This document shows positions 29,150 through 59,425 of a DNA stretch of 64,000 nucleotides, one piece after another. The position numbers and the translations under genes are program-made. The stretch spans positions 27,264,001-27,328,000 of the forward strand of contig CP068257.2 in the NCBI GenBank assembly GCA_009914755.4, read 5' to 3'. Each line of letters starts with the position of its first letter. Positions within the stretch are counted from its first letter, which is position 1. Origin of the DNA: the human T2T-CHM13v2.0 reference genome, Homo sapiens. Under the pieces are notes generated by a model, which was not told where the DNA came from, did no database searches, and was given only the letters and a program-made list of their open reading frames with translations.

Positions 29150-29212
29150 TCAGAAAAACGTCTCACGACACAGTGGACAAGTGGATTTGTTGCTAGATGT
29201 AAACCATTTGTA
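29150..29212 (-). CDS. LTN1: LTN1 terminal coding segment (YKWFTSSNKSTCPLCRETFF*), end of the RING domain; the exon continues into the 3'UTR
   Basis: rc reads ctttttcag|TAC AAA TGG TTT ACA TCT AGC AAC AAA TCC ACT TGT CCA CTG TGT CGT GAG ACG TTT TTC TGA. Acceptor is ctttttcag; phase 0 matches the upstream exon. Confidence 0.9.
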   Translation of the reverse strand, partial: YKWFTSSNKSTCPLCRETFF

Positions 29213-29766
29213 CTGAAAAAGAAAAGGTTTTAAATACTAAAAGAACTTTTAAAGTTCTCCTCTAACATACATCATAAAGTACACATACATCTATAGTAAC
29301 CTTCAAATGATAAAGTGAAAAGGGAAGAACACTAAAATTTTTGCTCTTTCTGTTATCTCCAAAATTAACACAAATTGAGTATTACTTCCGATGGCTACAC
29401 TAAGTTCTTCCTACTTAGGCTCATGCACACAATCACTAAGATATAAGAAATCTCCTGTGAAACAAATGAACAAATGGCAACTTCTTTTTCAGTATGTTTA
29501 AAAAGAGCACAGGGCTCTGATGCCAGATGGCTTCCAGTACCAACTCCTGTACTCTCCTTCATGGTCTAGATCTCAGAAGACCTTCTACTTCTTGAGTGGT
29601 AAAAGGTCACTGGAAACACCCATTTATTAGAGGGCCTTGATTCTACCAGTCTCAGTAAACTGCTAATTATCTTTGGCAGATTTTAAAAAATCACTTTTTA
29701 ATATATCTCCCATTAGCTACAATTAAGTTTAACACACATTTTCTCTTCCGAAGTTAGACATTGTGT

Positions 29767-29798
29767 AGGTGTGTGTGTGTGTGTGTGTGTGTGTGTGT
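29767..29798. repeat. (GT)16 / (AC)n microsatellite in the last LTN1 intron, ~54 nt downstream of the 5' splice site of the RING-encoding exon
   Basis: gtgtgtgtgtgtgtgtgtgtgtgtgtgtgt. Confidence 0.95.
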
Positions 29799-29852
29799 TT
29801 ATGTGTATAAAATACATAAAATATAAGTAAGTTAATTTCTCTTTAGACTTAC

Positions 29853-30020
29853 CAAGCAGGCTGAATGGAATTTTTTCTTGCATGTTCTACAGGCTTTTTT
29901 GGGAAGGGAATAGTTGAAACCGTGAATGACTGAGAAACAGATCATGCAATCTTCAACACCCTCAAAACGTTTGTCTACGTTATTTTTCCATAAAGCTAAG
30001 CCTTCCATAATACTTCCATT
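29853..30020 (-). CDS. LTN1: LTN1 penultimate coding exon ([56 protein letters not shown]), N-terminal part of the RING domain
   Basis: Acceptor gttaacag|AATGGA; donor TGCTTG|gtaagtctaaag; 168 nt, phase 0-0. Confidence 0.9.
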
Positions 30021-30418
30021 CTGTTAACAAGAAGAAAAATAAGTCACTACACACTGATAAACACCAATTTTATTTTTATTCAATTTCACAAATTTTAAAG
30101 TTGAATTACAATTCTGAAAGAAGAGAATCTGCTTGGCTATGTTCATGTCTCCCAACTTATGAATGTTGGTTTTTAAAATAACCTCCCAAGTTTTTGGAAC
30201 CAGATGTAATTTTTCTCCATTAAAGACATACTTTAAAGGCTTCTGGACCAATACTTAAAGTGTTATAGTCTAAGCTTGTTGCTTGATAAAACTCTCTTAA
30301 TAATTAAATCATTTAGGTTAGTTCTAATGTTTAACTGAAAATGATGAAATTATCTCAAATGATTTGTTCCAGCTCTACAATATTGGTGAGCATATTTGTT
30401 TTAAAATAGTTTTTCTTG

Positions 30419-30712
30419 GCCGGGAGCGGTAGCTCAAGCCTGTAATCCCAGCACTTTGGGAGGCTAAGGTGGGTAGATCACTTGAGGTCAGGAGTTCGTT
30501 GACCACCATGGCCAACATAGTGAAACCCCATCTCTACTAAAAATACAAACAATTAGCCAGGTGTGGTGGCGGGTGCCTGTAATCCCAGCTACTCTGGAAG
30601 CTGAGGCAGCAGAATCGCTTGAACTGGGAGGCAGAGGTTGCAGTGAGCTGAGATCATGCCATTGCACTTCAGCCTGGGCAACAAGAGCAAAAACTCTTAA
30701 AAAAAAAAAGTT
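30419..30712 (+). mobile_element. Alu SINE in LTN1 intron
   Basis: ggccgggagcggtagctcaagcctgtaatcccagcactttgggaggctaaggtgggtagatcacttgaggtcaggagttcg...gcctgggcaacaagagcaaaaactcttaaaaaaaaaaag. Confidence 0.9.
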
Positions 30713-31167
30713 TTTCTTTATTGTAGAATGCCTGAGATACACAATGTGCACACAGAACTGAAGATTTAAAATGTGTTTAGAGGTCAAAGGTCTTTGAGGG
30801 TCCTGGGACTTCTCTAACCAAAGAGGAGTTGAAATGTAAGAATAAAAGTGAAAGTAGCTCAGAAGGCATTCATCTGTCCAGTATCTTTCAAAACATCCTC
30901 TCCGAAACAATTTTGTTAATACACCTTCTACAGTGTTAATGAAATAAAGTCAATCCCTCTCAAACACCAGAAAATAAATTACAGAACCTTAACAATTAAA
31001 ACAGAAAGGCAGGTTTAATCCATTTAGGCATATCTCTGTATTTATCCAAGGAAGTTTAATATCTACTTTTATCTTAAGCAGAAAAGATATATTTTATGTT
31101 TAAATGCCCTTTTAAATAGATCATCTTTTCCAAGTTTGTAAAGCCAAATGTGTAAACAGAAACTTAC

Positions 31168-31362
31168 CTGATGGGTGAGGTAAGTGCTTAACTGCAGCAT
31201 CCAGTTCCGCCACTGCTGAACAGCTACTCCTACTCTTTTCCCACTTTCTACTATTATTGAACCCAGTGGATAATTTGAAGGCAGTTGTATTATAAGTTCA
31301 ATAACTATGTCCTCAATAGTATAAGTAGCCATTACCTCTCGAGTAGTAGCTCGAGCTTTAAC
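31168..31362 (-). CDS. LTN1: LTN1 coding exon ([65 protein letters not shown]), RWD-like C-terminal region
   Basis: Acceptor ttgttgtattgcag|GTTAAAGCT; donor CATCAG|gtaagtttctg; 195 nt, phase 0-0; matches the remembered listerin C-terminal sequence. Confidence 0.9.
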
Positions 31363-56998: not shown

Positions 56999-57102
56999 CC
57001 TACAAGTCATTTTTCATAGGCACTCACACTGATCATGGAATCTAATTTAAGGACACTGTTCAAGTATAAAAGAGACACTGAAACCAAGCTCAAAAAAGGT
57101 TA

Positions 57103-57256
57103 CCTGTTGATATCCAAAGATGAAGCCTGAACTTGGTTCTTCAGCCACAGAGCAGACAAATGTAGGAAGGTACTCTCTTTATATGAACTGTCAGTTTGAT
57201 GAACCAATAAATTTACACCAGAGAGCCAAGTATTTTTCAGTTTACAGATAAGAAAA
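57103..57256 (-). CDS. LTN1: LTN1 coding exon ((D)[50 protein letters not shown] + 2 nt)
   Basis: Acceptor gttgacatcttgattttag|ATTTTCTTATC; donor GATATCAACAG|gtaacctttttt; 154 nt; phase-compatible with both neighbours. Confidence 0.75.
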
Positions 57257-58165
57257 TCTAAAATCAAGATGTCAACAGGAATTTGTAATCTCACTGAATT
57301 AACTCTCATCAGCACAAAATGTTTTAAACAACTCTACAGATCTGAGATTTTTTTAAATACCATTTAAAAAAGAAAAATTTTAAATTGCCATTCAAAATTC
57401 AATTGCCAAACAAAGCAACTGTGTCATAAACATGCAATCATACAAGCTAGCACGTATCATATAAATGTAAAATGGTAAGATTTTTAAAGTTACATTTTTT
57501 ATGCTTGAACTTATTTACAAGAGTTGTCCTTTTGGAGACATTTTTAAAAAAATTATTACACCATTTCCAAATACAGAAGTTAGTATTTAAGAAAGGGTTG
57601 GTAGCCAATGATGGGCAGAAAAAAAAGAGAGAGAGAAAGAGGAAGGAAGAAGGAAAGAAAAAAAGAAAGGAAAGAATGAAGGGTGGGAGGAGGAGAGCTC
57701 TCTATAGATAGTATTTTTTTATGTTCCTTTCACAAATAAGTCTGAATTAGCATATAAGGCAAGAATATAGTCCTTAAAAAGATAATTTCAATTCTATTTT
57801 GATATACACCAAAGATTGAATGTTTTTACTATAATAAAGGGATATTATTATCCCCCTTTTACAAATGAGGAAACTAAGACATCAAGAAATTAAGGAACAT
57901 GCCAGAACTACTGAATGGACTAAGATTCCACCTAATCAATTATGGCTCATTCCAAATTTCTTTGAATATCAAGTGAGATCTTTAGAAATAACATCTACGT
58001 ACATCTTTAACTTGCTTTCTAGAGCTGAAAGTGTTTAAGACTGTAGCCCTTTACTCAAAATGCTTTAAACTTTCAAACACATTATAATTCAATTAATAAA
58101 GCCTGGGCACTTACACTCACTATGAAGGTCAGAGCCGGAGATTCCCAACAAAACATTTGAGCAGT

Positions 58166-58405
58166 AGGCTATTACCTGGCAAATGTGTTTTTTCTTTGCT
58201 CTGAGCACATAACTGAAAGAGAGTTAATAATAAATCTTCAGATGATGGCATTAGCAAGCATCCTTTCGCTGAGCTGAAATAGTTATAGGCCACATCACAG
58301 ATAAAAGACACTGATGAGTCACTGCTTTCAGCTTCTGATAATTTCTTTGTTTTGAATAAAGTTTCATGAAGTCTAACAATGATTCTTTCAACATATACGT
58401 CTCCA
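58166..58405 (-). CDS. LTN1: LTN1 coding exon ((D)[79 protein letters not shown] + 1 nt)
   Basis: Acceptor cctttttttctccag|ATTACTTGATTGG; donor CATTTGCCAG|gtaatagccta; 240 nt. Confidence 0.85.
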
Positions 58406-58802
58406 ATCAAGTAATCTGGAGAAAAAAAGGTTCAAACAGACAAAAAATAAAAATATTAACGTGTATTTTTAAATATCTTACTTTGGATTAATAATTCTAT
58501 GGGTCTTTCCTGGATTTTAAAATGTATTAGACAAAATTTTATCAACAAATCAACACATTCTCTCACACATAAAGGCCCTCAAGTAAAAAAGGCAGTTTTA
58601 AATTAAGTAGAAAACAGAAATGGTCTACAGTTAGGGTGAGCAAGTTTGCTACACTGAAAACCCTTTAAGTCATGAGTCAACTTTATGAGCTAAAAAAAAA
58701 AAACCCTTTAGGATATAGAACTAAAAATATTAAATATCTTCTAAGTCATGGTATGAAGATTAATAAACAATTAGGGTGCTTACAATATTACGATATGTAA
58801 AT

Positions 58803-59113
58803 GAGCTGGGCGCAGCGGCTCACGCCTGTAATCCCAGCACTTTGGGAGGCTGAGGCAGACAGATCACCTGAGGTGAGGAGTTCGAGACCAGCCTGGCCAA
58901 CACAGCGAAACCCCGTCTCTACTAAAAATATAAAATTTAGCCAGGCATGGTGGCATGCACCTGTAGTCCCAACTACTTGGGAAGCTGAGGCACAAGAATC
59001 ACTTGAACTCAGATGTTGTAAGCCAAGATCACACCACTGCACTCCAGCCTAGACGACAGAGGGAGACTCAGTCTCAAAAAAAAAAAGAAAAAAGAAAAGA
59101 AAAGAAAAAAAAA
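58803..59113 (+). mobile_element. Alu SINE with A/G-rich tail
   Basis: gagctgggcgcagcggctcacgcctgtaatcccagcactttgggaggctgaggcagacagatcacctgaggtgaggagttcgagaccagcctggccaacacagcgaaaccccgtctc...ctcagtctcaaaaaaaaaaagaaaaaagaaaagaaaagaaaaaaaaaa. Confidence 0.9.
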
Positions 59114-59235
59114 AATTTGAATGAGTAAGTCCTGTTATTTTTAACCAATAACACATAAGCTGAGCCCCATGCAATCCCCCACAAAGGAGAAATGGACTAT
59201 TCCCCATTAGAAAACAAAAGCCATATTTGTCCTAC

Positions 59236-59425
59236 CATTTTTAACATGTTGGGATAATACCAAGCTTAGAAGAGTCCATCTTTCTGAGAAGTGAGATTCT
59301 GAAGATACCCTGGATTCCAAGTCCTCATTACAAAGACAATCTGCCAAGTTGACCAATTTCTCACCAAGGATATCGCCTTTGAGCCAAGGAGTTACTAAAG
59401 CATGTTTATCTGAACTAGGACATGC
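59236..59425 (-). CDS. LTN1: LTN1 coding exon ([63 protein letters not shown] + 1 nt). This is the most 5' exon I could delimit; further exons probably lie beyond 59425 or outside the window.
   Basis: Acceptor attttatggttttag|GCATGTCCTAG; donor GTTAAAAATG|gtaggacaaat; 190 nt; open frame, phase 0 in, 1 nt out (G+AT = Asp with the next exon). Confidence 0.75.

What the first reader, a model, noticed from the sequence alone, without database searches (positions are those of the whole stretch)
29150..59425. 3' half of LTN1 (listerin) reconstructed as 19 minus-strand exons ending in the RING domain
Hand-traced splice sites give a single continuous reading frame across 19 exons. The concatenated product reads [783 protein letters not shown]...[221 protein letters not shown]. 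The last ~250 residues match what I remember of human listerin, with its RWD-like region and C-terminal RING. The remaining exons are supported by splice consensus, polypyrimidine tracts, TACTAAC-like branch motifs and strict phase continuity. LTN1 is a known gene, so this is identification rather than novelty. Several exons are short (75-145 nt) and the ORF track (minimum 60 aa) misses them entirely.
Basis: partly seen in the sequence, partly recalled or inferred. Interest (0 to 1): 0.5.

Follow-up and report, generated by a model that had tools for sequence, protein, structure and literature searches.

The report
Human LTN1 (listerin) last 19 exons

Summary
All 20 peptide pieces are on the minus strand exactly as quoted. 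Each of the 18 junctions has a single in-frame splice solution: 17 GT-AG and 1 GC-AG. The exons join into one open frame ending at TGA 29152-29150.

The interpretation also holds. The product is the C-terminal 59% of human listerin (residues 722-1766 of 1766), with LTN1 HEAT regions, an RWD/UBC-like domain and a C-terminal C4HC3 RING.

There is one error. The human reference and about 83 of 86 orthologue models use the upstream AG (45005), which adds one glycine (CSTNGGFGHL).

With that fix, the 1045 residues are 100% identical to human LTN1. Chimpanzee, bonobo and gorilla differ at 8-10 positions, so the window is human.

Side observations:
- An alternative first coding exon of predicted isoform X3 lies at 63296-63325.
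- A frameshifting GT donor lies 5 nt past the GC donor.
- A THUMPD1 pseudogene-like copy lies at about 1.8-2.2 kb.
- There are at least 15 Alu elements.

The gene is already known and interest is low.

The parts
59236..59425 (-). LTN1 coding exon, model exon 1 (190 nt, residues 722-785, phase 0)
   Evidence: AG acceptor, GT donor; tblastn
58176..58415 (-). model exon 2 (240 nt, residues 785-865)
57104..57257 (-). model exon 3 (154 nt, residues 865-916)
56050..56194 (-). model exon 4 (145 nt, residues 916-964)
55480..55666 (-). model exon 5 (187 nt, residues 965-1027)
51938..52097 (-). model exon 6 (160 nt, residues 1027-1080)
50881..50985 (-). model exon 7 (105 nt, residues 1080-1115)
46182..46324 (-). 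model exon 8 (143 nt, residues 1115-1163)
Tandem acceptor tttag|GAG|GTTTTGG.
   Evidence: Reference CSTNGGFGHL against model CSTNGFGHL; sequence; orthologues; 100% identity to human only after correction
44525..44669 (-). model exon 10 (145 nt, residues 1208-1256)
43101..43314 (-). model exon 11 (214 nt, residues 1257-1328), ending in a GC donor (ACAG|GCAAGT). A GT 5 nt further downstream gives a frameshifted variant.
42371..42608 (-). model exon 12 (238 nt, residues 1328-1407)
41966..42040 (-). model exon 13 (75 nt, residues 1407-1432)
39922..40108 (-). model exon 14 (187 nt, residues 1432-1494)
35228..35399 (-). model exon 15 (172 nt, residues 1495-1552); exact TACTAAC upstream of the acceptor
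33810..34030 (-). model exon 16 (221 nt, residues 1552-1625); the RWD domain starts here
   Evidence: PMC4321881
31168..31362 (-). model exon 17 (195 nt, residues 1626-1690); RWD core with K1627, R1629 and helix W1676-Y1686
   Evidence: PMC4321881
29853..30020 (-). model exon 18 (168 nt, residues 1691-1746); end of RWD and first six zinc ligands of the RING (from C1715, codon at 29948)
29150..29212 (-). model exon 19, coding part (residues 1747-1766, last two RING cysteines CPLC, stop TGA 29152-29150); the exon continues into the 3'UTR
28320..29149 (-). Start of the 3'UTR. Candidate poly(A) signals AATAAA at 28874, 28691 and 28325, and ATTAAA at 28520. The one actually used was not determined.
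   Evidence: sequence only
63296..63325 (-). Coding part of an alternative first exon (ATG...ATC|gtaagt = MFILAYLRDI) of predicted human LTN1 isoform X3. It joins the 59425 acceptor in phase 0.

Best explanation
Window 29150-59425, minus strand, is the 3' part of the human LTN1 gene. [quoted passage not shown] The encoded part comprises the distal HEAT-repeat arm, the RWD domain and the C-terminal RING. According to the published cryo-EM and mutagenesis work, the N-terminus of listerin (not in this window) is held at the 60S intersubunit face by NEMF. The HEAT arm spans about 200 A around the subunit. The RWD domain docks on eL22/eL31 through K1627/R1629. This places the RING beside the exit tunnel, where it recruits a ubiquitin-charged E2 to polyubiquitinate stalled nascent chains. 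Shown here: exon structure, reading frame, identity with the human protein, domain content and presence of the functional residues. Inferred from the literature: the biochemical mechanism.
For: - Verbatim peptides are present and each junction has a unique splice solution.
- phmmer against PDB sequences matches 3j92_w 'Listerin' with E = 0, query 1-1044 aligned to residues 722-1766.
- Pfam finds PF24618, PF22999, PF23009 (UBC-like/RWD) and PF13639 (RING).
- 322 listerin homologues have E <= 1e-100, all those named being 'E3 ubiquitin-protein ligase listerin'.
- The corrected model is 1045/1045 identical to human XP_016883806.1. Chimpanzee has 9 mismatches, bonobo 8, gorilla 10, baboon 24 and macaque 27.
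- K1627, R1629, W1676-Y1686, C1715 and the final residue 1766 fall at the positions numbered in Shao et al. 2015 (PMC4321881).
- The RING ligand spacing is C-x2-C-x15-C-x2-C-x4-H-x2-C-x12-C-x2-C at residues 1715-1761.
- tblastn with 134 LTN1 proteins places all significant HSPs on these 19 exons.
- At least 15 Alu copies fit a primate genome.
Against: Nothing substantive. No transcript data were available, so exon use rests on agreement with the protein. The UTR end, the poly(A) site and minor isoforms were not determined. The chromosomal location could not be checked because no human genome collection is among the tools.
Confidence: 0.98

Rival explanations
1. The reader's product as written, with a single Gly at the exon 8/9 junction and the acceptor at 45002, is the main or a substantial natural isoform produced by alternative use of the TAG|GAG tandem acceptor.
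For: Both AGs are present 3 nt apart and both keep the frame. TassDB holds some EST-supported alternative NAGNAGs that contain GAG (PMC2699507).
Against: The human reference and PDB sequences have GG. 70 orthologue models have NGGF/DGGF and 13 rodent models have NGAF; none has the one-residue form. The 1054-aa version on the human X3 backbone is absent from the 15-billion-protein collection. The acceptor preference is CAG > TAG > AAG > GAG and the upstream AG is favoured by scanning (PMC2699507).
Confidence: 0.04
2. The window is from a non-human great ape, or is a diverged paralogue or pseudogene of LTN1, and not the human gene.
For: Ape LTN1 proteins are about 99% identical, so a protein-only comparison has limited power.
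Against: There are 0 mismatches in 1045 residues against human, compared with 8-10 against Pan and Gorilla. The frame is intact, all 18 introns are retained with consensus splice sites, and there are no frameshifts, which excludes a processed or decayed pseudogene.
Confidence: 0.01
3. Chance open frames: the exon chain is an artefact of hand-picking AG/GT dinucleotides.
For: AG and GT are frequent, and a motivated reader can often chain ORFs.
Against: There is full-length identity to an independently determined protein. tblastn run blind finds the same 19 blocks.
Confidence: 0

Closest known systems
Human LTN1 / listerin (RNF160, ZNF294); PDB 3j92 chain w, 9gy4; NCBI XP_016883806.1
   Same: Identical over all 1045 residues encoded in the window after the 3-nt acceptor correction. 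The domain order is the same (HEAT, RWD, RING) and so is the residue numbering.
   Different: Nothing, except that the window holds only residues 722-1766. The N-terminal 721 residues lie beyond position 64000.
Great-ape and Old World monkey LTN1 orthologues (Pan troglodytes XP_009446796.3, Pan paniscus XP_034804193.3, Gorilla XP_030861117.2, Papio, Macaca)
   Same: Collinear with no gaps over the same 1045 residues, and the same GG at the exon 8/9 junction.
   Different: 8-10 substitutions in apes and 24-27 in monkeys.
Saccharomyces cerevisiae Ltn1 (Rkr1), PDB 8aaf chain e
   Same: The distal HEAT, RWD and RING region aligns (query 753-1041 against 1266-1556, E = 3.5e-50). The RING ligands and the RWD core are conserved.
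   Different: Only the C-terminal ~290 residues are recognisably similar by sequence. The protein is 1562 aa long.
NAGNAG tandem acceptors (TassDB class)
   Same: The exon 9 acceptor is TAG|GAG, two AGs 3 nt apart, both in frame.
   Different: The downstream site is a GAG, the 'implausible' class. There is no evidence here that it is used.

Membership tests
Listerin / LTN1 orthologue group | Sequence identity with the reference human protein across the region covered | tested here: met
1045/1045 identical to human XP_016883806.1 residues 11-1055.
Listerin / LTN1 orthologue group | C-terminal RING finger with eight zinc ligands in cross-brace spacing | tested here: met
   C-x2-C-x15-C-x2-C-x4-H-x2-C-x12-C-x2-C at residues 1715-1761. 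PF13639 matches at E = 8e-7, 29.7 bits against a cut-off of 27.3.
Listerin / LTN1 orthologue group | RWD (UBC-like) domain immediately before the RING, with the ribosome-contact residues K1627/R1629 and helix W1676-Y1686 | tested here: met
   PF23009 matches at E = 6.4e-37 on model residues 902-986. The residues are present at the published numbers (PMC4321881).
Listerin / LTN1 orthologue group | Listerin-specific HEAT-repeat regions | tested here: met
   PF22999 LTN1_E3_ligase_6th at E = 4.8e-63 and PF24618 LTN1_E3_ligase_5th at E = 1.3e-11.
Listerin / LTN1 orthologue group | N-terminal domain that binds NEMF and the 60S subunit | not testable with these tools
   Residues 1-721 are not encoded in the window. 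tblastn finds nothing upstream of 59425.
Listerin / LTN1 orthologue group | E3 activity on 60S-bound nascent chains | not testable with these tools
   Biochemical property, taken from PMC4321881 and PMC12047659.
Spliceosomal (U2-type) protein-coding gene | Consensus GT/GC-AG introns with phase continuity | tested here: met
   17 GT-AG introns plus 1 GC-AG with a full AG|GCAAGT consensus; polypyrimidine tracts are present; a single open frame results.
Alternatively spliced NAGNAG acceptor | Two AG dinucleotides 3 nt apart at the 3' splice site | tested here: met
   tttag|gag|GTTTTGG at 45010-44996.
Alternatively spliced NAGNAG acceptor | Both acceptors used in transcripts | not testable with these tools
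   No RNA-seq or EST data were available. Indirect evidence points against it.

The most novel reading that the evidence does not exclude
The alternative first exon at 63296-63325 (MFILAYLRDI, consensus donor ATC|gtaagt) may drive a real, internally initiated 1055-aa listerin. That form would keep the distal HEAT arm, RWD and RING but lack the NEMF/60S-binding N-terminus. It could act as an RQC-independent ligase or as a competitor at the exit-tunnel site. At present it is only a computational NCBI isoform model (XP_016883806.1).
Probability: 0.08. Interest if true: 0.3.

Novelty: already known. Interest (0 to 1): 0.05.

Why it matters
It matters little scientifically. LTN1 is a well-characterised human gene with solved structures. 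The value is methodological. A tool-free reading of raw sequence recovered 18 of 19 exons exactly, including a non-canonical GC donor, and 1044 of 1045 residues. Its only error was at a tandem NAGNAG acceptor, where the frame alone cannot decide and the rule 'prefer the upstream AG, avoid GAG' would have given the right answer.

Tried and rejected
- The Rfam gathering-threshold scan of the whole window gave 0 hits, so there are no annotated structured RNAs in the introns or flanks.
- A CpG-island scan (500-bp windows, GC > 0.5, o/e > 0.6) found none.
- I looked for extra coding exons in the long introns (35.4-39.9 kb, 46.3-50.9 kb, 52.1-55.5 kb) with 134 LTN1 proteins. The only hit was one marginal HSP from an aberrant squirrel fusion model (P0079, 31% identity, E = 0.001, 45358-45567), which I rejected as noise.
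- A Pfam scan of the THUMPD1-like ORF gave no hit. The PDB sequence search identified it instead.
- My first attempt at exon boundaries contained my own off-by-one errors and was replaced by the systematic solution.
- I considered and rejected a pseudogene, a non-human ape origin and chance ORF chaining (see the rival explanations).
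Full report
**Observation**

The flanks show AG acceptors preceded by pyrimidine-rich tracts and GT donors of good consensus. There is an exact TACTAAC upstream of the exon at 35399 and an ACTAAT upstream of 34030.

I solved each junction systematically, asking which split of 0/1/2 bases is flanked by GT or GC on one side and AG on the other. Seventeen introns are GT-AG. One, after the exon ending at 43101, is GC-AG with the full ACAG|GCAAGT consensus.

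The joined model is 3135 nt, 1044 codons followed by TGA at 29152-29150, with no internal stop. My first, hand-typed boundary list contained my own errors and should be ignored.

**Identity**

A sequence search of all PDB chains returns 'Listerin / E3 ubiquitin-protein ligase listerin' (3j92_w and 9gy4, 1766 aa) with E = 0 and 2367 bits. The model aligns from its first to its last residue with residues 722-1766. Yeast Ltn1 (8aaf_e) matches the last ~290 residues at E = 3.5e-50.

Pfam finds:
- LTN1_E3_ligase_5th (PF24618);
- LTN1 HEAT region 6th (PF22999, E = 4.8e-63);
- the UBC-like/RWD domain (PF23009, E = 6.4e-37);
- zf-RING_2 at the extreme C-terminus.

The large protein collection returns 322 homologues at E <= 1e-100. 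Those that carry a name are listerin from mammals, birds and reptiles.

**The one discrepancy**

The PDB alignment shows a single gap. The reference reads CSTNGGFGHL where the model reads CSTNGFGHL. The DNA at that acceptor is ...ttttactttag|gag|GTTTTGGA, a tandem NAGNAG acceptor (TAG then GAG).

Using the upstream AG (45005) gives G|GA GGT = Gly-Gly.

Among the 86 orthologue models that could be anchored at this motif, 70 have N/D-G-G-F and 13 rodent models have N-G-A-F. None has the one-residue form; the remaining three are evidently aberrant gene models.

The published preference order for the base before the AG is CAG > TAG > AAG > GAG. The upstream site is favoured by scanning, and NAGNAGs containing GAG are regarded as 'implausible' for alternative use (PMC2699507).

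**After correction**

The corrected CDS is 3138 nt and 1045 aa. It is identical at 1045 of 1045 positions to human XP_016883806.1 (residues 11-1055) and at 607 of 607 positions to the shared part of human EAX09937.1.

Mismatch counts for other primates:

| Species | Mismatches in 1045 residues |
|---|---|
| Chimpanzee | 9 |
| Bonobo | 8 |
| Gorilla | 10 |
| Baboon | 24 |
| Macaque | 27 |

The window is therefore human. At least 15 Alu copies are consistent with that; none would be expected by chance.

**Completeness**

tblastn with three primate full-length proteins gives exactly 19 blocks coinciding with the 19 exons. Nothing is found upstream of 59425 or in 1-29150. Repeating this with all 134 proteins gathered puts every HSP on these exons, apart from one marginal match (E = 0.001) from an aberrant fusion model.

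Rare alternative exons cannot be excluded without transcript data. Residues 1-721 are encoded beyond position 64000.

**Mechanism (literature, not tested here)**

Shao et al. 2015 (PMC4321881) give, in human numbering, HEAT repeats to about residue 1550, RWD at 1561-1699 and RING at 1715-1766. In their model:
- the N-terminus is sandwiched by NEMF at the 60S intersubunit face;
- the roughly 200-A HEAT arm wraps round the subunit;
- the RWD domain contacts eL31 through K1627/R1629, and its helix W1676-Y1686 approaches eL22;
- this places the RING at the exit tunnel to ubiquitinate the stalled nascent chain.

In the corrected model these residues are K, R and [11 protein letters not shown] at exactly those numbers. 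C1715 is the first RING ligand and the last residue is 1766. The RING ligand spacing is C-x2-C-x15-C-x2-C-x4-H-x2-C-x12-C-x2-C.

The RWD domain is encoded by model exons 16-18 and the RING by exons 18-19.

**Side observations**

1. The N-terminal decapeptide of the predicted human isoform X3, MFILAYLRDI, is encoded at 63296-63325. It is followed by a consensus donor (ATC|gtaagt) in phase 0, matching the phase-0 acceptor at 59425.
2. A GT 5 nt downstream of the GC donor (GGCAA|GTGAAA), joined to the normal acceptor at 42608, reproduces exactly the aberrant tail ...VTVTGKRKQRCV* of EAX09937.1. This is a frameshifted variant.
3. At 1780-2223 (minus strand) there is a 148-codon intron-less frame. 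Its last 35 residues are almost identical to the THUMP domain of human THUMPD1 (2dir_A, E = 5e-16). This is most simply a processed-pseudogene copy; from memory it would be THUMPD1P1.
4. Rfam gives no hit in the window and there is no CpG island.
5. Candidate poly(A) signals follow the stop codon at +276, +459, +630 and +825 nt.

**Verdict**

The finding is a correct identification of a known gene. The only error is a 3-nt slip at a tandem acceptor. There is no novelty and interest is low.

Noticed in passing
window 63296-63325 (-): ATG TTC ATA CTG GCA TAT CTC AGA GAC ATC followed by gtaagt encodes MFILAYLRDI. This is the unique N-terminus of the predicted human LTN1 isoform X3 (XP_016883806.1, 1055 aa).
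   Followed up: partly
window 43090-43101 (-), donor of model exon 11: The reference isoform uses a GC donor (ACAG|GCAAGT). A GT 5 nt downstream, joined to the normal acceptor at 42608, reproduces exactly the frameshifted tail GKRKQRCV* of human EAX09937.1 ('ZNF294 isoform CRA_c'). That variant is probably NMD-prone.
   Followed up: partly
window 1780-2223 (-), possibly extending to about 2500: A 148-codon intron-less open frame resembles human THUMPD1. Its last 35 residues are almost identical to PDB 2dir_A (E = 5e-16). It looks like a processed pseudogene about 27 kb downstream of the LTN1 stop, and it coincides with the highest G+C in the window (0.45 in 1-4000).
   Followed up: partly
window 999-58850, 15 sites (e.g. 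6669, 26426, 34273, 58817): At least 15 Alu copies, both orientations, match a 34-nt Alu core with 3 or fewer mismatches; 0 are expected by chance. Nine of them lie in LTN1 introns, and several long non-LTN1 'ORFs' are Alu translations.
   Followed up: partly
window 28325-28874 (-): Four candidate poly(A) signals lie 276-825 nt after the LTN1 stop codon (AATAAA at 28874, 28691 and 28325; ATTAAA at 28520). Which one is used could not be decided from sequence.
   Followed up: no
whole window: The Rfam gathering-threshold scan found no RNA family on either strand, and no 500-bp window meets CpG-island criteria.
   Followed up: yes
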